64,000 nt of DNA, taken from positions 8,248 through 72,247 of the IMG/VR virus record IMGVR_UViG_3300017971_000278; one strand, given 5' to 3'. A program made the translations under genes and the position numbers. Numbering within the stretch: position 1 is the stretch's first letter; every line of letters starts with the position of its first letter. The DNA comes from a virus. The notes under the pieces were generated by a model. The model was not told the origin of the DNA. It ran no database searches and saw only the letters and a list, made by a program, of their open reading frames with translations. Below are positions 37,994 to 64,000 of this stretch, in pieces.

Positions 37994-38010
37994 TTTGTTT
38001 TCTCCTTGTT

Positions 38011-38051
38011 AAAGAAAAAAGGGAGAAGGAGACCGACTGCTCCTTCTCCCT
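38011..38051 (-). terminator. Rho-independent terminator after the major capsid gene
   Basis: AGGGAGAAGGAG-cagtcggt-CTCCTTCTCCCT, a 12-bp stem, followed by TTTTTCTTT. Confidence 0.9.
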
Positions 38052-38083
38052 ATGAAACATTACGCCTTAAAAGACGCTACGAT

Positions 38084-39337
38084 TTACAGACCAGAGATTG
38101 CCGTAGTAGTATCAAGCTCGCTGATACTTCCGCTAGAAGAAATAGTTGCAGTAAGTGGCATAGCAATTTCATTAGCTTTAACAGGCACATTACGAAGAAC
38201 ACCAATGCCAAGACCGTCTTCATAAATAGCAAAACCATAACGCTCTTTGAGCTTCATCTTGCTACTATCAGTAGACATATCTTCCCATTTGTCCATCACT
38301 ACGTCGTGGTCAACAACAAGCGCACCGAGGTTATTAGAATCAAAGATCATAATATCAGCAGTGTTATTGTTAACGTTAAACGGAGCAAAAGGAGTAACGA
38401 GAACGTTCAGCGGGTGCGGAAAGTAATCCGGAATAACTGCGGCAGAATTCAGATTCTGATCAAGTTCAGAAACAGAAGTAGGAGTCTCAGTTGCAGCATT
38501 TCCACTAGGAGTAAACTGTCCATATCCACTTGGCAGACCTTGGCCATTCTGCGAAGAAGCAGACCATGGGTTACCAGACTTAGGCATATTATGCCTCTGG
38601 AACCATTGACCGTTGCCAGTGTTTTTAACGATAGTCTGAAGCAGAGGATCAGCCATCCACATAGACCAGGTTAAGGGGTGCATCATAAGAGTGTTAGGAA
38701 TAAAACCCTGCATCATAATATGAGCATACGCCTTCAAAAGGTCTTCCATCCGACAAGAACCGTTTCCGGCACCAGAGAGGGAGCGACCAGTGCATGTACC
38801 ATACACAGAAGATGTTGGGGTAATATTATCAAAAAGGGTAACACCCATGGCAGTAATAAACTGCATACCTTTTTGTTCTTTTTTACGAGCAAGCGCCGTT
38901 CTTGCGGCCCGGATGTGCATATTGATAACGTCAAACTGAGAGTAGCGTTGCATCTCTTCAGTAATTTTAAAAGCAAGACCAGTCTTTGCTACGTTAATCG
39001 TCACGGTTCCAGGTGCAATCTGCAGTTGCTGTTCTGGGTAGGTTTGGTTTTCACCAAGGTCATAGGCGACCAATGAACCAATTGTCGGGAAAGTAATTCT
39101 AGCAGCAGCAGAGTACTGTACCCTATCCAAGAGAGCGGGGATGATCATCATAGGCTCTACAGGTTCGCGCATAATATCTTCAACAACTTTTGGCATCCAA
39201 GCAGCTGCATTAGGTGTAGCAATTGCATCATCATAAGTCAATTGTTTTTGAGAAGCCGAATTAAAGCCGTTATTCATCCAAGTGTCTCGGAATAGTTCAT
39301 AACTGTCGCCGAAGGTTGTTTTGTTCTTAGTATTCAT
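38084..39337 (-). CDS. Major capsid protein (HK97 fold, 417 aa)
   Basis: LGENQTYPE, KTGLAFKITEEM, PNTLMMHP and KLKERYG motifs; AAGGAGG SD; followed by a terminator. Confidence 0.9.
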   Translation of the reverse strand: MNTKNKTTFGDSYELFRDTWMNNGFNSASQKQLTYDDAIATPNAAAWMPKVVEDIMREPVEPMMIIPALLDRVQYSAAARITFPTIGSLVAYDLGENQTYPEQQLQIAPGTVTINVAKTGLAFKITEEMQRYSQFDVINMHIRAARTALARKKEQKGMQFITAMGVTLFDNITPTSSVYGTCTGRSLSGAGNGSCRMEDLLKAYAHIMMQGFIPNTLMMHPLTWSMWMADPLLQTIVKNTGNGQWFQRHNMPKSGNPWSASSQNGQGLPSGYGQFTPSGNAATETPTSVSELDQNLNSAAVIPDYFPHPLNVLVTPFAPFNVNNNTADIMIFDSNNLGALVVDHDVVMDKWEDMSTDSSKMKLKERYGFAIYEDGLGIGVLRNVPVKANEIAMPLTATISSSGSISELDTTTAISGL

Positions 39338-59863: not shown

Positions 59864-60175
59864 TTATTTGGAATGGACGGCTTCAAAGATTTGGTCAAGT
59901 TTGTCTTTGATTTCTCCAATATCTTCTTTCTGTCCTTTGAGGTTTTCTTCAATTCTTGAAAAGCTTTCTTTGGGTACGTAACGTTCATTGACGTACTCTT
60001 TAATGTCTTTAGTATTAACATAGTCTTGATTTGTTGTAAACTCTTTTATATCAGAATGTTCACTTGAGGCCCATAGGACACAGGCAACTGTAAGACTTAT
60101 TATGGTCAGCGCGACACCGACCCATTTGGGCCAGGAAAGAGTAAGGGGTTTGTCAGTTAGAGTAATACGTTTCAT
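59864..60175 (-). CDS. Single-TM plus coiled-coil protein, holin-like (103 aa)
   Basis: WVGVALTIISLTVACVLWA TM helix followed by a heptad-rich tail; GGGGAGG SD. Confidence 0.5.
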   Translation of the reverse strand: MKRITLTDKPLTLSWPKWVGVALTIISLTVACVLWASSEHSDIKEFTTNQDYVNTKDIKEYVNERYVPKESFSRIEENLKGQKEDIGEIKDKLDQIFEAVHSK

Positions 60176-60294: not shown

Positions 60295-60756
60295 TCAGGA
60301 AGAAGTTTTGATATAACTACCAAAAAGGTCATGTTTGGTATTTGATTCAACTATTGGAATCCTAATAGAAAGTACACCACTAGATAGATCAATGAATGAT
60401 TTTGGCAAATCTAAATCTCCTGAAGTCTCTATAATATAATGAAAACAACTAACAAGATCTTTATGAAGGGTATCATTTTGGATATTGTCTCCTATAATCT
60501 TTAGTTTGTTCCCCTCACTAGTTATATGGATACACTTTTGGTAAAACCCTGGAACTACAAACTGTAGTTTCCAACCAACAATATCGAATTTGGTGTCGGT
60601 GACCTTGGAAAGAACTGGTCTTTGGTAAAGTTTTTCAAAAAGTTCTTTTGGCATCAAAGGAAAGAACTCATTAAAGATAATATCAGGATAAAGGACTTCC
60701 CAGTCTTTGTAACGATAAATTAAGGTTTTTTTGTCTGGAGAAGAATATTCTGTCAC
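60295..60756 (-). CDS. Divergent Hsp20/alpha-crystallin family protein (153 aa)
   Basis: FVVPGF...ITSEGNKLKIIGD...SGVLSIRIP; GTG start with a GGGGAG SD. Confidence 0.65.
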   Translation of the reverse strand: MTEYSSPDKKTLIYRYKDWEVLYPDIIFNEFFPLMPKELFEKLYQRPVLSKVTDTKFDIVGWKLQFVVPGFYQKCIHITSEGNKLKIIGDNIQNDTLHKDLVSCFHYIIETSGDLDLPKSFIDLSSGVLSIRIPIVESNTKHDLFGSYIKTSS

Positions 60757-60921: not shown

Positions 60922-61311
60922 TTAAGAAAGGTTACCAAAAAGAGTTTTAGGTTCTCCAAGGACCTCTTTTTTGAAAGGAATATCTATGGTTAGTAAACCA
61001 TTGTAAAAATAAACATTGGCATTTTTAGGATCTAACTGATGAGATAATTGAAGTTTCCTGGTAAATTCACTACGGAACTTGTGAGAAATTTTTGAATCAG
61101 TATTGTCTCCTTTAATAATAAGGATGTTGTTTTTGGCACAAACTGAGATTTGGTCTTCTGAGAAACCAGCTAAGGCAATTTGTATGGATCTTCCTACAGA
61201 AGGAGTAGTGTCATCAAAAGGAGTTTTTCTCATAGGGTAAGAATCCATGGGTGGTTTGGGTTCGGTTGGCCAGTTAAAGAAATAGTCTTCAAGGAAAGAT
61301 TGTGTGATCAT
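60922..61311 (-). CDS. Small heat-shock protein Hsp20 (IbpA-like, 129 aa)
   Basis: IQIALAGFSEDQISV...LIIKGD...FTRKLQL...FYNGLLTIDIP; GGAGGTG SD. Confidence 0.85.
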   Translation of the reverse strand: MITQSFLEDYFFNWPTEPKPPMDSYPMRKTPFDDTTPSVGRSIQIALAGFSEDQISVCAKNNILIIKGDNTDSKISHKFRSEFTRKLQLSHQLDPKNANVYFYNGLLTIDIPFKKEVLGEPKTLFGNLS

Positions 61312-61385
61312 ATCGCACCTCCAAATAGTTGTGTGTCCCCAATTGGACGATACTCTTAAATAAAAGAGTATTTTGTAATATTCAA

Positions 61386-61413
61386 AATATAATCACGAAA
61401 AAAGAATCGTCAA
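61386..61413 (-). promoter_or_regulatory. Sigma70-type promoter TTGACG-N16-TATATT
   Basis: Upstream of the Hsp20 gene at the start of the minus-strand block. Confidence 0.5.
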
Positions 61414-61559
61414 CAGAAGTTTATCATATAGTGTTGATTTTGGGATAAAAAATTTTTTAGAAAATTTGAAATAAAGAAAAGTTACCCCTAGAAACTCCAG
61501 AAAAAAATATATTTTTGTTGACCTAGTTTTTAATAATAGACTCTACGGGGTACCCGAGA

Positions 61560-62200
61560 CGTTCGGAGCCCACGGGGTCAATATGAGTGGGCGACTGAAC
61601 GCCTTCTTGTGAGGTATGGCACAACCCATACCAACCATGCTAGTTAGGAGATTCTCACTCCAGGCTATCGGCTAGCAATAGGTTAACTACGAGATGAGCT
61701 GTTGCTGTGAGATGTTATGTTGTTATGCTGTTATGTTCTACTTACTGGACTGGGTATCATTGTAAGGATGTGTAATTCATCCTGCAATGGTGTATGTGTG
61801 TGTGATAGCGCGGCTCCGGAAGGAGGGTAAACTAGATGTAAACGCTCTGAATAGAGGGTAAACTAAACACACACTGCATTGGTACAGATCTGAAATAAGT
61901 GACGTACTAGTCAACACCATTGTCAATGCCATGTGTTCTGATACACGACTAGTAGACTCTACTGTATGGGCATGCTTCCATAACATACGTATGTATGTTA
62001 CCTGGGTGTGCCGCAGCAAGAGACAATGCTAGTTACCCATACTGTCCAGTAGCTAACCTACCCCATGTTGTCATGTGGGTAGCATGTGCAATGCATGCTA
62101 CCTGCATAGTGTAGTACCTATATGTACCCATGTACACACTATGTGTGTGTATGTGGGTATGTGTATGTAGTATACGCATATATCACGCCCGTCCTGGGCA
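61560..62200 (+). ncRNA. Candidate large structured non-coding RNA or leader
   Basis: No credible ORF; at least 12 hairpins and long-range stems, several needing G-U pairs that only work on the + strand. Confidence 0.5.
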
Positions 62201-62213
62201 GAAGGAGTCAGTC

Positions 62214-62399
62214 ATGACTAGTAAGTACCAGACAGACATGTTCGCTCTCACCAACAATGACAAGATTGTTTACTTCCGTCGTGTAAATCTCCACCGTGTG
62301 GAGGTACAGCGTGACGGTGGTAGTGGTGAGATGACGCTTGCTGCAGCTCGTGCCCTTTGGGTAGAGCTGGTAGCCAAGGGTTACCACCGAACTGACTAA
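62214..62399 (+). CDS. Small early-type hypothetical protein (61 aa, MTSKYQTDMF...)
   Basis: AGAAGGAG SD before ATG 62214; the track's start at 62130 lies in low-complexity non-coding sequence. Confidence 0.75.
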   Translation: MTSKYQTDMFALTNNDKIVYFRRVNLHRVEVQRDGGSGEMTLAAARALWVELVAKGYHRTD

Positions 62400-62466
62400 T
62401 TGTCGAAACATCTCTGAAAGGAGGTGTCTGTAGGAGATAGCCTCCCTACACTGATGAGATAGGCTA
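62400..62466 (+). ncRNA. Type II hammerhead ribozyme with pseudoknot
   Basis: GAAA (62405-08); stem III ACAUCUCU/GGAGGUGU with a GAAA loop; GUC cleavage triplet (62426-28); stem I UGUAGG/CCUACA; CUGAUGA (62451-57); stem II UGUC/GAUA; loop I UAGCC pairs with the 3' GGCUA. Confidence 0.9.
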
Positions 62467-62510
62467 ACTAACCAGTAGGTATATATGTACCTACAAGAAG
62501 GAGAAGAGAC

Positions 62511-62804
62511 ATGACTAAGTTATTCAAAAGAATCGCAAACAAAGTAAAAGGAATATTCAGTAAGGATGATTTTAGTGCGAAAGGTTACCAAAAGATAATT
62601 AAGGCACTAAAGGAATGTAACGAGGAAATGGGAGATATGGTTGACCACTATGAAGGATATGTGCCTGTACATGATGATACATGTACGTGTCATAAGTGTT
62701 ATGAGGATAACCTTGATTATGTACGCCGTGTCGAAGAAGAAAGACTACGCAAAGAAGATGAAGAAGCTTACGCTCATGTATGCAAATACGGATGGATTGA
62801 GTAG
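62511..62804 (+). CDS. Hypothetical protein (97 aa)
   Basis: AAGGAG SD; HDDTCTCHKC metal-binding-like motif. Confidence 0.8.
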   Translation: MTKLFKRIANKVKGIFSKDDFSAKGYQKIIKALKECNEEMGDMVDHYEGYVPVHDDTCTCHKCYEDNLDYVRRVEEERLRKEDEEAYAHVCKYGWIE

Positions 62805-62855
62805 CAGGCGGATTCACCTCAACCAGGCAGGTAAACACTAGTACCTGTTGGACTC

Positions 62856-62957
62856 CTCAGTCACGCCTCTTGCTTACGCAAGAGTCGCGCCTTCGTCAAA
62901 CAACAAAGGACCAGGACTCAGGCACGCTCATTGCATAGCAATGATCGATGCCTTCGT
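62856..62957 (+). repeat. Two-copy structured repeat CTCAG(T/G)CACGC-[7-bp stem-loop]-TCG(C/AT)GCCTTCGT
   Basis: Copies at 62856-62896 and 62917-62957; the stems CTCTTGC/GCAAGAG and TCATTGC/GCAATGA differ in sequence but both pair fully. Confidence 0.75.
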
Positions 62958-63204
62958 GTAGGGCATGACGCAATGACGTGTCAAATGTACCTGCCAACTA
63001 GGCTACATGTATATACCTATATTGGTAAACAGGTAGCCGCAACTATACACAATGTAACTGTGTACCACAGTGGTGCTTCTCTATCAACTGAGCACCCTTG
63101 GTGGGTGCTAGTACCTATATGGTATTACTCTGTAGTAGGGTAAAGGTATAGGTGTAACCAACAATGGTGAGGTGTGTCTTCCTCGCCGCGAAAGGAAAAG
63201 AACG

Positions 63205-63330
63205 ATGGTATTCTGGGCATTAATAGCAATGGCAGCTGGTGGAGCTAGTCTCTACTTCAATGCAATCTTGTTTGGTGAAATCGAGCGCCTCGAAAGAAGA
63301 ATTGAGGTTCTTGAAAGTGAGGATGAGTGA
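63205..63330 (+). CDS. Small membrane protein (41 aa, MVFWALIAMAAGGASLYFNAILFGEIERLERRIEVLESEDE)
   Basis: Translated by hand; AAAGGA SD; TM helix plus short coiled coil. Confidence 0.65.
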   Translation: MVFWALIAMAAGGASLYFNAILFGEIERLERRIEVLESEDE

Positions 63331-63434
63331 TGTGGGCACTCGTATGTGACACGTTCGCAGACACCATGTATGTGTTCTATGTGTACATGGCTGTAGTGAA
63401 TCGACTGTTCGATTTGTTCGAATGGTTGAGTTAA
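63330..63434 (+). CDS. Small hydrophobic protein (34 aa, MWALVCDTFADTMYVFYVYMAVVNRLFDLFEWLS)
   Basis: TGATG coupling to the previous ORF; GAGGA SD. Confidence 0.45.
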   Translation: MWALVCDTFADTMYVFYVYMAVVNRLFDLFEWLS

Positions 63435-63570
63435 TTACAGTGTGGTTGTGCATTACTGTATATTATACATAGGTGGGTTATACAACCCCCTATATAATGA
63501 TACCTTTATACACAGTAATGTATAAACATAACAACAATTGCCCCCTAAAGGGGCTGTAAAGGAGTCTTTC

Positions 63571-63720
63571 GTGCCGCGCAAACAACCAATCAATAACAAA
63601 CGACAACGCTTATCACGTATTAAGAAGAACACCCAAATCACCTCTCTGTTGGACTATAACATAACCAACATACTACACCACCTATCAACAAAAGCCCTCC
63701 CCAAGAGGGCTCCTAAGTAG
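63571..63720 (+). CDS. Small basic protein (49 aa)
   Basis: GTG start with an AAAGGAG SD. Confidence 0.45.
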   Translation: MPRKQPINNKRQRLSRIKKNTQITSLLDYNITNILHHLSTKALPKRAPK

Positions 63721-63907
63721 GCATAACCATTAAGAAAACATTCCGTTTCTCTTACTGGGCTGTAGGACAAAATTCTACAGCAATGCCTAGTAGGTTTTAC
63801 AGTATAACTGTAGTAGGTTTTCTATTGTAATTACAACAGGTTAAGCAAACCTGTATTGTTAAGAAACAACCATTAAAGTCCCCTTGTGGGGGACTAAGGA
63901 GGATCAA

Positions 63908-64000
63908 ATGGAAGAAGAAAGAATCTTTATGTTGTTACACAAACTAGTAAATAAGATACGTCTTCAACAAACCCAGGGTTTAGACAGAAATAGTACTGAG
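63908..64000 (+). CDS. Hypothetical protein, truncated by the window end (MEEERIFMLLHK...)
   Basis: AAGGAGG SD; open to the end of the window. Confidence 0.7.
   Translation, partial: MEEERIFMLLHKLVNKIRLQQTQGLDRNSTE

What the first reader, a model, noticed from the sequence alone, without database searches (positions are those of the whole stretch)
61560..62200. ~650-nt densely base-paired non-coding region: candidate new large structured RNA
Seen: CGTTCGG.GCCCAC/GTGGGC..CTGAACG (61560-61601); GGTATGG/CCATACC; GCTAGTT/GGCTAGC enclosing GGAG/CTCC. A long-range three-part stem TACTGGAC, TGGGTA, CATTGT (61743-61763) pairs with ACAATG, TACCCA, GTCCAGTA (62023-62051) and closes a multiloop containing AGGATG/CATCCT, CAATG..GTGTGTG/CACACAC..CATTG, TACTAGTC/GACTAGTA and TAACATAC/GTATGTTA. 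Further on are GGTAGCATG/CATGCTACC and CATAGTGT/ACACTATG. G-U pairs favour the + strand. Established: phages encode large structured RNAs such as GOLLD and ROOL; I do not recognise this one. Alternative: ssDNA hairpins for the virion RNAP or for replication.
Basis: partly seen in the sequence, partly recalled or inferred. Interest (0 to 1): 0.7.

Follow-up and report, generated by a model that had tools for sequence, protein, structure and literature searches.

The report
Structured RNA in phage early leader
The gene-free stretch at the start of this uncultured phage's early operon carries a roughly 465-base RNA fold that matches no known RNA family, is kept in a second phage through matching changes on both sides of its stems, and has an unknown function.

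Summary
The stretch has no credible ORF and matches no Rfam family. It is composite.

(1) 61561-79 is a 19-nt box. It is identical in seven distinct related phage contigs and occurs once per genome. In five of them the first gene starts 24-55 nt after the box begins, so about 600 nt here are an insertion.

(2) 61610-62074 is a structured core. A second phage (L017) keeps it at 74% identity, against 48% at fourfold sites of a shared gene. Two other metagenomes hold fragments at 90-95%.

(3) 62073-62175 holds two long G·U-rich hairpins that fold well only on the + strand.

Consensus folding of the two core copies gives z -8.6 and SCI 0.80 on the + strand, against z -4.7 and SCI 0.65 on the - strand. 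Helices with at least 2 compensatory pairs number 5, against 0.76 in shuffles.

Weak points are the sample (two full copies), the modest single-sequence z of the core (-2.4) and the absence of RNA data.

Best reading: a new, clade-specific structured RNA module in the early leader, probably released as a non-coding RNA. Its function is inferred, not shown.

The parts
61521..61526 (+). ACCTAG box in the AT-rich zone, about 35-40 nt upstream of the 19-nt box. It is a candidate phage-specific promoter element.
   Evidence: An alignment of 8 upstream regions shows it conserved in all but L016. No sigma-70-like + strand promoter was found in 61250-64000.
61561..61579 (+). Family-wide invariant 19-nt box GTTCGGAGCCCACGGGGTC.
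   Evidence: Exact copies occur in G001/L010 (=L018), L012 (=L015), L014, L016, L017, L020 and L021. It is single-copy at up to 3 mismatches in the window and in G001. The other exact hits are chance matches in GC-rich DNA: L013 and L019 have no AT-rich upstream zone or ACCTAG box (flanks printed), and L025-L029 have 63-71% GC.
61560..61601 (+). Hairpin H0 (CGTTCGG.GCCCAC / GTGGGC..CTGAACG).
   Evidence: MFE -22.4 kcal/mol, z -3.5. The inner GCCCAC/GTGGGC is also present in L017; the outer stem is not.
61610..62074 (+). Conserved structured RNA core of about 465 nt. The homologue is L017 1690-2045.
   Evidence: nhmmer finds only these two copies among all held DNA. blastn gives 75% identity in two blocks. 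RNAalifold gives z -8.6 and SCI 0.80 on +. The hand model has 13 double changes in 90 pairs.
61613..61632 (+). Hairpin P1 (GGTATGG/CCATACC).
   Evidence: It is kept in L017 as GGTATAC/GTATATC with a different loop. The X3 loose end shows a third, different G/C stem at this place (30 letters only).
61638..61677 (+). P2: outer stem TGCTAGTT/GGCTAGCA around the hairpin GGAG/CTCC.
   Evidence: Helix 3 has 8 pairs with 1 double and 2 single changes. Helix 4 is invariant.
61653..61712 (+). Candidate pseudoknots: the P2 loop 61653-57 with 61708-12, and 61662-69 with 61693-703.
   Evidence: Helix 5 has 5 pairs with 2 double changes. Helix 6 has 8 pairs with 1 double change. These were found by a search for helices formed in both sequences, so they are tentative.
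61713..61741 (+). Linker with 8-nt tandem repeats (TGTTATG).
   Evidence: the repeat finder families D7 and D8, spacing 8. L017 has 9 nt fewer here.
61742..61750 (+). 5' strand of the long-range helix. It pairs with 62044-62052.
   Evidence: Helix 7 has 9 pairs with 2 double changes and 1 change to G·U.
61755..61792 (+). Local hairpin with the AGGATG/CATCCT tip.
   Evidence: Helix 8 has 15 pairs. All 4 one-sided changes go through G·U.
61818..61945 (+). Inner domain, absent from L017. It contains two copies of a small hairpin followed by GGGTAAACTA.
   Evidence: It appears as a gap in A2. Direct repeats D10 and D16 lie here. Contigs from runs X3 and X4 show no listed difference in 61788-61877, but 5 substitutions and 3 indels in 61878-61911.
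61948..62033 (+). 3' arm: a long irregular hairpin with the tip at 61981-62000.
   Evidence: Helices 9-12 have 31 pairs, 4 double and 2 single changes, and none broken. It is predicted independently in both single-sequence folds.
62044..62052 (+). 3' strand of the long-range helix.
   Evidence: helix 7.
62073..62175 (+). Two long G·U-rich hairpins (62073-62107 and 62109-62175). They are candidate RNase III-type processing or stabilising hairpins. L017 has no homologue.
   Evidence: The + strand gives -62.2 kcal/mol, z -6.5. The - strand gives -37.3, z -3.3. See also inverted repeats I1 and I14.
62187..62213 (+). Small hairpin GCCC/GGGC plus the Shine-Dalgarno AGAAGGAG of gene 1.
   Evidence: Read from the sequence. 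The same ribosome site and start, GCAGAAGGAGTCNGTCATGACTA, follow the 19-nt box directly in G001.
62214..62399 (+). Gene 1 (61 aa, orphan).
   Evidence: It has no homologue other than itself.
62401..62468 (+). Type II hammerhead-like ribozyme directly after gene 1. This is context: it argues for + strand transcription and RNA processing.
   Evidence: cmscan gives 36.3 bits against a gathering score of 37, with E 2.9e-6 for the 171-nt search and 4.6e-5 for the 2.7-kb search.

Best explanation
The stretch is the untranslated + strand leader of the phage's first early transcription unit. It has three parts.

(a) A 19-nt box that is invariant across the phage family sits at the very start. It is probably a promoter or initial-transcript signal.

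(b) A core of about 465 nt (61610-62074) folds into a 5' domain (P1, P2, possible pseudoknots), a long-range helix, an optional and very conserved inner domain, and a 3' arm spanning 86 nt (61948-62033). The fold is maintained by selection on the RNA.

(c) Two long G·U-rich hairpins and a small hairpin precede the ribosome site of gene 1.

Proposed working: the RNA is the first product made after infection. The flanking long hairpins (RNase III-type substrates) and the hammerhead after gene 1 cut the polycistronic RNA. This releases or stabilises the core as a separate non-coding RNA, which then acts in trans as an accessory early factor, for instance by binding or sequestering a host or phage protein.

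Shown: the stretch is non-coding, its sequence is conserved above the neutral level, its structure is conserved with compensatory changes, the + strand is preferred, and it is present or absent as a module among relatives.

Inferred: transcription, processing, action in trans, and any target.
For: Non-coding:
- There is no ORF with a ribosome site.
- Mismatches to L017 are spread 26/31/34 over the three codon positions.
- Indels are 1, 2, 1, 1, 1, 9, 33 and 71 nt.
- Every one of the six frames has at least 4 stops in both copies.

Insertion:
- Five of the 7 distinct relatives start their first gene 24-55 nt after the start of the 19-nt box.
- G001 has the same ribosome site 22 nt after the box.

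Conservation:
- The core is 74% identical to L017 over 351 aligned columns.
- A shared neighbouring gene has only 62% identity at third codon positions and 16 of 33 identical fourfold sites.
- Runs X3 (freshwater sediment) and X4 (marsh) hold fragments that are 90-95% alike. A 90-nt patch (61788-61877) shows no listed difference, next to a 34-nt patch with 5 substitutions and 3 indels.

Structure:
- RNAalifold on the two cores gives E -84.35, z -8.6 against 100 column shuffles, and SCI 0.80 (shuffle maximum 0.62).
- Helices of at least 5 bp formed in both copies with at least 2 double changes number 5, against a mean of 0.76 (1 of 200 shuffles reach 5). With at least 3 double changes there are 2, against 0.03 (0 of 200).
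- The hand model has 90 pairs, all paired in both copies, with 13 double changes. Slid controls give 0-3.

Strand:
- The - strand gives alifold E -59.7, z -4.7, SCI 0.65.
- All 11 one-sided changes in the model go through G·U.
- The twin hairpins fold at -62.2 on + and -37.3 on -.

Context:
- + strand genes with strong ribosome sites lie downstream, along with a hammerhead-like ribozyme.
- Hammerheads are thought to process long phage transcripts (PMC3088659, passages read).
- In L017 the non-coding modules are kept while genes 1 and 2 of the window are not found.
Against: - Only two full-length copies exist, so covariation rests on one pairwise comparison.
- The hand model was chosen for pairing in both copies, which makes it circular.
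- In the unbiased test, the window's own MFE pairs carried over to L017 gave 69 unchanged, 22 kept with change (14 one-sided, 8 two-sided), 27 broken and 85 in gaps.
- The core alone folds only modestly better than shuffles (z -2.37), and one coding control window reached -4.39.
- The sequence is TG/TA-rich and offers many alternative G·U helices.
- Compensatory changes inside short hairpins could come from template-switch mutation rather than selection.
- DNA-parameter folds are also strong on both strands (z -6.4 and -5.3).
- L017 lacks the 128-nt inner domain, and the module sits at a different place in its leader, so no fixed partner gene points to a function.
- There is no RNA evidence at all.
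Confidence: 0.5

Rival explanations
1. The element is a purely cis-acting leader. The structured RNA stays attached to the early mRNA. It would protect the 5' end from host RNases, tune translation of the first gene, or modify the polymerase so that it reads through the many downstream hairpins, as put RNA does in HK022. It would not act as a free RNA.
For: It lies between the conserved start box and the first ribosome site. Relatives also have hairpin-rich spacers in the early unit. L016 carries an unrelated 795-nt ORF-free leader at the same place.
Against: Five of the 7 distinct relatives do without any long leader. In L017 the core precedes a different gene and lies behind another non-coding module. 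About 465 nt with long-range helices is far more than known stabilisers or antiterminators need (recalled knowledge). The twin long hairpins between the core and gene 1 look like cleavage sites.
Confidence: 0.25
2. The element works at the DNA level. Single-stranded DNA hairpins or cruciforms would be used by the virion RNA polymerase as promoters, or by replication or packaging.
For: The region folds well with DNA parameters on both strands (z -6.4 and -5.3). N4 virion polymerase uses DNA hairpin promoters (recalled; PMC4496689 was seen only in a search listing). The element lies at a divergent, AT-rich switch region.
Against: Pairing depends heavily on G·T and is much better on the + strand. 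All 11 one-sided changes are wobble-type. On the - strand these would be A·C mismatches, so a cruciform would not be kept. The long-range helix (about 300 nt apart) and the pseudoknots are not features of hairpin promoters. The only family-wide conserved piece is the 19-nt box, not the hairpins. No iterons or AT-rich repeats lie inside 61600-62200.
Confidence: 0.07
3. The stretch has no selected function. It would be a fast-evolving spacer whose palindromes are inherited or produced by mutation (template switching), or one that hides a small peptide gene (window 61717-61830, 37 aa; L017 1780-1914, 44 aa).
For: The sequence is TG/TA-rich and of low complexity, with many chance helices. The core's z is only -2.4. 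27 of the window's MFE pairs are broken in L017. The module is dispensable in relatives. Both copies keep an open frame over the same stretch.
Against: Identity of 74% exceeds the 48-62% at neutral sites of a neighbouring gene. A 90-nt patch is invariant in two further samples. Compensatory changes occur in helices about 50 and about 300 nt apart (helices 5 and 7), which template switching does not explain. The shared frame survives only through a +1/+2 indel pair and a TG repeat, has no Shine-Dalgarno site, and shows no codon periodicity of mismatches.
Confidence: 0.15

Closest known systems
GOLLD and ROOL (large ornate RNAs of phages and prophages)
   Same: They are large (about 500-800 nt), multi-helix, pseudoknotted non-coding RNAs encoded by phages, with function unknown (PMC12286853, passages read).
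   Different: No match to any Rfam model even at E up to 10. That these families are in Rfam 15 is recalled, not checked. GOLLD and ROOL usually lie near tRNA islands; the window has no tRNA. This element is a promoter-proximal leader of an early operon. Oligomer formation is untested.
RNase III-processed early RNA of T7-like phages
   Same: It is a polycistronic early transcript with long hairpins between cistrons that separate and stabilise the pieces (recalled knowledge). Here the 62109-62175 hairpin has 29 pairs and sits just before a ribosome site.
   Different: T7 sites are single hairpins of about 60 nt. Here a 465-nt conserved multi-domain fold precedes them. Cleavage is not shown.
Hammerhead-flanked genes in phage polycistronic transcripts
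   Same: A type II hammerhead-like motif directly follows gene 1. Such ribozymes are proposed to cut long phage RNAs into gene-length pieces (PMC3088659, passages read).
   Different: The hammerhead is a neighbour, not part of the element. It scores 0.7 bit under the Rfam gathering score. No ribozyme was found at the borders of the core.
phi29 pRNA
   Same: It is a structured non-coding RNA encoded right after an early promoter, and it acts in trans as an oligomer (recalled; mentioned in PMC12286853).
   Different: pRNA is about 170 nt and belongs to phi29-like podoviruses. No covariance-model match was found. This phage is a contractile-tailed virus with sheath, portal and TerL genes.
Pre-early region of Thermus phage P23-45 (transcribed by the virion RNA polymerase)
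   Same: It is a phage with a tape-measure-locus virion polymerase whose pre-early genes carry conserved promoter and terminator motifs (PMC10770324, sections 8 and 9 read). Here a single invariant 19-nt box heads the early unit.
   Different: The sections read describe no large structured leader RNA for P23-45. P23-45 has 14 AT-rich promoters, whereas the box here is single-copy.

Membership tests
Any Rfam 15 family (recalled to include GOLLD, ROOL, OLE, HEARO, raiA, 6S RNA, phi29 pRNA, and group I and II introns) | Match to the family's covariance model | tested here: not met
   There are 0 matches at gathering score in the whole 64-kb window. At E up to 10 in 61300-64000, the only hits inside the element are miRNA-like matches to the 62109-62177 hairpin, at 17-30 bits against gathering scores of 67-101.
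GOLLD / ROOL | Usual location near tRNA islands in phages or prophages | tested here: not met
   ARAGORN finds no tRNA or tmRNA in the window. The context feature is taken from PMC12286853 (passages read).
GOLLD / ROOL | Homo-oligomeric cage formation | not testable with these tools
   This needs native gels or cryo-EM.
N4-type virion-polymerase hairpin promoters | Short DNA hairpin (5-7 bp stem, 3-nt loop; recalled) just upstream of the start site, in several copies at the entering genome end | tested here: not met
   The element is a 465-nt multi-helix fold with pairs about 300 nt apart. The only family-wide conserved piece, the 19-nt box, is single-copy. Helices depend on G·T and favour one strand.
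RNase III processing hairpins (T7 early RNA type) | Intercistronic hairpin with about 20 or more pairs of double-stranded RNA | tested here: met
   62109-62175 forms 29 pairs and 62073-62107 forms 15 pairs in the MFE fold, with z -6.5.
RNase III processing hairpins (T7 early RNA type) | Cleavage by host RNase III | not testable with these tools
   No RNA data are available. The host is unknown.
Hammerhead ribozyme type II (neighbour at 62401-62468) | Covariance-model score at or above the gathering score, with a complete catalytic core | tested here: inconclusive
   It scores 36.3 bits against a gathering score of 37, E 2.9e-6. The full model 1-66 is matched, with CUGAUGA and GAAAC present.
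Protein-coding gene | Conserved open frame, codon-periodic substitution, ribosome site | tested here: not met
   The 80-aa - strand ORF shares no words with any protein in the 5.8-billion-protein set.

The most novel reading that the evidence does not exclude
The core is a new class of large, ornate phage RNA. It would be the very first product of the injected virion polymerase's transcription. After excision it would fold (possibly into an oligomer) and act without protein-coding capacity to take over the host or disarm a defence, for example as a decoy for a host RNA-binding or RNA-sensing protein. The neighbouring hairpin-repeat modules and the hammerhead would belong to the same RNA-based early programme.
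Probability: 0.2. Interest if true: 0.8.

Novelty: new variant of a known kind. Interest (0 to 1): 0.55.

Why it matters
Very few large (over 400 nt) structured RNAs of unknown function are known, and the phage-borne ones (GOLLD, ROOL) turned out to form RNA-only cages. This candidate sits at a defined place: directly behind a uniquely conserved start box of the early operon, in a phage said to inject its own RNA polymerase. That gives a testable entry point, namely what a phage gains from making a half-kilobase folded RNA before any protein. It also shows an early region in which the non-coding modules are better kept between phages than the protein genes around them.

Tried and rejected
- GenBank phages, blastn with 61300-62500: no match.
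- Neighbour proteins as anchors. The Hsp20-like gene found no relative in viral contigs. Gene 1 has no homologue but itself. The 80-aa - strand ORF has no candidate.
- Anchor protein 59864-60175(-).
- Element motifs in viral contigs. The 18-mer gave one chance hit in coding DNA (L022). Three other patterns gave 0 hits.
- The 19-nt box in genome contigs gave 5 hits, all in DNA of 63-71% GC, judged chance.
- G002 (L024), a 38%-complete relative, has no box and no element. The metagenome records of L016, L017 and L021 are not held and were not searched.
- nhmmer with the two-copy core against all held DNA found nothing further.
- Rfam on 7 relatives' loci gave only a spurious mir-297-like hairpin.
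- Sequencing runs: no RNA holder is listed, so expression is untested.
- Earlier findings by sequence and by relatives gave nothing beyond notes on this same window.
- I considered and dropped an intron, a transposon end, an omega/bridge RNA or a retron. There is no matching Rfam model, no adjacent transposase or reverse-transcriptase-like ORF, and no target duplication at the borders compared with G001.
- A covariance model was not built. Only DNA already held could have been searched, and nhmmer had found nothing there.
- Supplementary files of the papers were not opened.
Full report
OBSERVATION. Between the start of the Hsp20-like gene on the - strand (61311) and the ATG of the first + strand gene (62214), no ORF has a ribosome site. 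The window has no Rfam match at gathering score and no tRNA. The stretch 61540-62210 folds at -255.2 kcal/mol on the + strand (z -5.14, 20 shuffles) and at -211.5 on the - strand (z -3.59). This energy signal is uneven. The two hairpins at 62070-62180 give z -6.5 on + and -3.3 on -. The part later shown to be conserved, 61607-62072, gives only z -2.37 on + and -2.02 on - (60 shuffles each). Eight coding control windows ranged from +1.35 to -4.39. Folding energy alone would therefore not carry the claim.

CONTEXT. The window is the right-hand 64 kb of a 72,247-bp viral contig that is cut at both ends. It encodes a tail sheath, a portal and a large terminase, so it is a contractile-tailed phage. 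At 61.3 kb the genes switch from the - strand to the + strand. After an AT-rich zone, G+C rises from about 0.30 to 0.43-0.50. Downstream lie small + strand genes with strong ribosome sites, separated by long hairpin-rich spacers. Directly after gene 1 lies a type II hammerhead-like motif (36.3 bits against a gathering score of 37). No sigma-70-like + strand promoter was found.

RELATIVES AND THE 19-NT BOX. A 140-kb IMG/VR contig (G001, TerL 70% identical) has the same layout: an Hsp20-like gene, an AT-rich zone, the sequence GTTCGGAGCCCACGGGGTC, and then, 22 nt later, the same ribosome site and start as the window's gene 1. About 600 nt of the window are missing there. The 19-mer was then used as a probe. 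In viral contigs it finds only G001. In metagenome contigs it finds 10 loci. Two are chance hits: their flanks show no AT-rich zone or ACCTAG box. Eight loci show the same AT-rich upstream zone, and all of those but L016 also carry an ACCTAG box about 35-40 nt upstream. Counting duplicates once (L010=L018, L012=L015), this gives seven distinct relatives. The five hits in genome contigs are chance matches in DNA of 63-71% GC. The box is single-copy in the window and in G001. In five relatives the first gene begins 24-55 nt after the start of the box. Only the window (653 nt), L017 (about 900 nt) and L016 (about 795 nt, unrelated sequence) have long ORF-free leaders.

A SECOND COPY. L017 is a 3.9-kb metagenome contig whose neighbouring membrane protein is 82% identical to the window's. 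It holds a homologue of window 61628-61820 and 61945-62068 at 75% identity. nhmmer delimits the core as window 61611-62074 and L017 1690-2045, and finds no other copy in any held DNA. L017 lacks window 61818-61945. The module order also differs. In L017 the hairpin-repeat module, which lies at 62805-62957 in the window, comes first and the core second. The window's genes 1 and 2 are not found in L017. Logan contigs from a freshwater-sediment run (X3) and a marsh run (X4) carry 151-159-nt pieces that are 90-95% like 61632-61678, 61756-61890 and 61788-61934. No difference is listed in 61788-61877, whereas 5 substitutions and 3 indels lie in 61878-61911. The element thus exists in at least four phage lineages from different habitats, but only two copies are full-length.

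IS THE STRUCTURE SELECTED? The core is 74% identical over 351 aligned columns. The shared neighbouring gene shows 87, 92 and 62% identity at codon positions 1, 2 and 3, and 16 of 33 identical fourfold sites. The non-coding core is therefore more conserved than neutral sites.

RNAalifold was run on the two cores with the window-only insert columns removed. The + strand gives -84.35 kcal/mol, z -8.6 against 100 column shuffles, and SCI 0.80 (shuffle maximum 0.62). The - strand gives -59.7, z -4.7 and SCI 0.65.

A scan for helices of at least 5 bp that form in both copies found 5 with at least 2 double changes. The shuffle mean is 0.76, and 1 of 200 shuffles reaches 5. It found 2 helices with at least 3 double changes, against 0.03, with 0 of 200 reaching 2.

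A hand model of 12 helices and 90 pairs is paired in both copies throughout. It has 13 double changes and 11 one-sided changes, all through G·U. With partners slid by 1-3 columns, only 0-3 double changes appear. That model was chosen for pairing in both copies, so its 100% is circular.

The unbiased test is weaker. The window's own MFE pairs, carried over to L017, gave 69 unchanged, 14 kept with a one-sided change, 8 kept with a two-sided change, 27 broken and 85 in gaps. Many of the broken pairs lie where L017 is deleted or not homologous, or in one MFE stem (GCAATAG/CTGTTGC) that competes with the better-supported P2.

The best-supported parts are these:
- The 3' arm 61948-62033: 31 pairs, 4 double and 2 single changes, none broken, and predicted independently in both single folds.
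- The long-range helix 61742-50/62044-52: 2 double changes and 1 wobble change.
- P2: 1 double and 2 single changes.
- P1.

Two candidate pseudoknots (61653-57 with 61708-12, and the P1 loop with 62067-71) rest on 2 and 3 double changes. They came out of the search itself and are tentative.

RNA OR DNA, AND WHICH STRAND. DNA-parameter folds are strong on both strands (z -6.4 and -5.3), so energy does not exclude DNA hairpins. The + strand nevertheless wins in every comparison. The twin hairpins lose 25 kcal/mol on the - strand. All one-sided changes are of the G·U type, which would be A·C mismatches on the other strand. Together with the + strand genes and the hammerhead-like motif downstream, this points to a + strand RNA.

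NOT CODING. Mismatches are spread 26/31/34 over the three codon positions. The indels break the frame. Each of the six frames has at least 4 stops in both copies. One + frame stays open over the same stretch in both copies (window 61717-61830, L017 1780-1914). This holds only through a +1/+2 indel pair and a TG repeat, and the frame has no ribosome site. I give a peptide gene a low probability.

HOW IT PROBABLY WORKS. What is shown: a clade-specific, non-coding, + strand-biased fold that is conserved and sits directly behind the family's early start box. It is followed by two long hairpins of 15 and 29 pairs, then by the ribosome-site hairpin of gene 1, and, after gene 1, by a hammerhead-like motif.

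What is inferred: the early polycistronic RNA is cut at the long hairpins (as RNase III does in T7 early RNA; recalled) and at the hammerhead (as proposed for phage transcripts in PMC3088659, passages read). The core would then accumulate as a separate RNA of about 0.5 kb made before any phage protein.

Three things suggest an accessory early factor acting in trans rather than a gene-specific regulator: the core is dispensable in relatives, it moves as a module, and its inner domain is strongly conserved. A decoy or scaffold for a protein is my best guess, and it is unproven. The main rival is a purely cis role in stability, translation or read-through.

COMPARISON WITH KNOWN THINGS. The closest in kind are GOLLD and ROOL, large phage RNAs of unknown function that form cages (PMC12286853, passages read). 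There is no model match, no tRNA neighbourhood, and a different genomic position. The flanks resemble T7-type RNase III sites and hammerhead-processed phage operons. P23-45 offers a precedent for conserved pre-early signals read by a virion polymerase (PMC10770324, sections 8 and 9 read), but the sections read describe no large leader RNA. I found no paper describing this element. My three literature searches were aimed at context, not at this sequence, so 'not in print' rests mainly on the absence of an Rfam family and of GenBank phage matches.

VERDICT. This is a real, probably new structured RNA module, with its size corrected to about 465 nt plus flanking hairpins.

Noticed in passing
window 61561-61579; L010 3085-3103; L012, L014, L016, L017, L020, L021: A 19-nt box is identical in seven distinct related phage contigs whose neighbouring proteins are only 32-82% identical. 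It is single-copy per genome. It is preceded by a short hairpin whose stem differs between phages but stays paired (GGGG/CCCC, GTGG/CCAC, TGGG/CCCA, AGTA/TACT, CGGG/CCCG), and by an ACCTAG box. It may be the promoter or initial-transcript signal of the early unit and deserves its own study.
   Followed up: partly
window 62401-62468: A type II hammerhead-like motif lies right after gene 1, 0.7 bit under the Rfam gathering score. Run X3 holds a copy with 4 differences in 51 nt that is followed by a different hairpin and ribosome site, so the ribozyme seems to move as a junction module.
   Followed up: partly
window 62805-62957; L017 1238-1510; L010 4860-5060: A hairpin-repeat module is present (units with a 7-bp stem such as CTCTTGC/GCAAGAG, flanked by GGCA and TGCCTTC). 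It has 2 copies in the window, about 4 in L017 (placed directly behind the 19-nt box) and several in G001. Window and L017 are 78% identical here.
   Followed up: partly
L016 3465-4259 (- strand): A related phage carries an unrelated 795-nt ORF-free leader at the same place behind the 19-nt box (fold z -2.7 in sense, -1.7 in antisense). The site may host different non-coding RNAs in different phages.
   Followed up: partly
L010 3460-3768 and 4750-5720: G001 has spacers of 310 nt and about 970 nt in its early unit. They contain TG/TA-rich long hairpins like window 62109-62175. The early regions of this phage family are unusually rich in non-coding, hairpin-forming sequence.
   Followed up: no
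window 38001-38466 (- strand, mRNA sense): This was one of eight background windows in the folding control. It reached z -4.39 with only 15 shuffles. It lies over the start of the 417-aa gene and the preceding gene end.
   Followed up: no
window 63319-63342: The 4945-nt Logan contig of runs X1 and X2 differs from the window at 8 positions and has a 2-nt insertion within 24 nt, at the end of the small gene 63206-63330. It is identical elsewhere over 61300-63787.
   Followed up: no
window 60295-60756 and 60922-61311 (- strand): Two tandem Hsp20/alpha-crystallin-like genes lie next to the strand switch. Relatives G001, L015 and L021 keep one at the same place, while L017 has none there.
   Followed up: partly
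window 61820-61840: A perfect Shine-Dalgarno-like AAGGAGG is followed 9 nt later by ATG-TAA (a start-stop pair). It lies inside the 90-nt patch that is invariant in runs X3 and X4. It may be chance or a ribosome-binding feature of the RNA.
   Followed up: no
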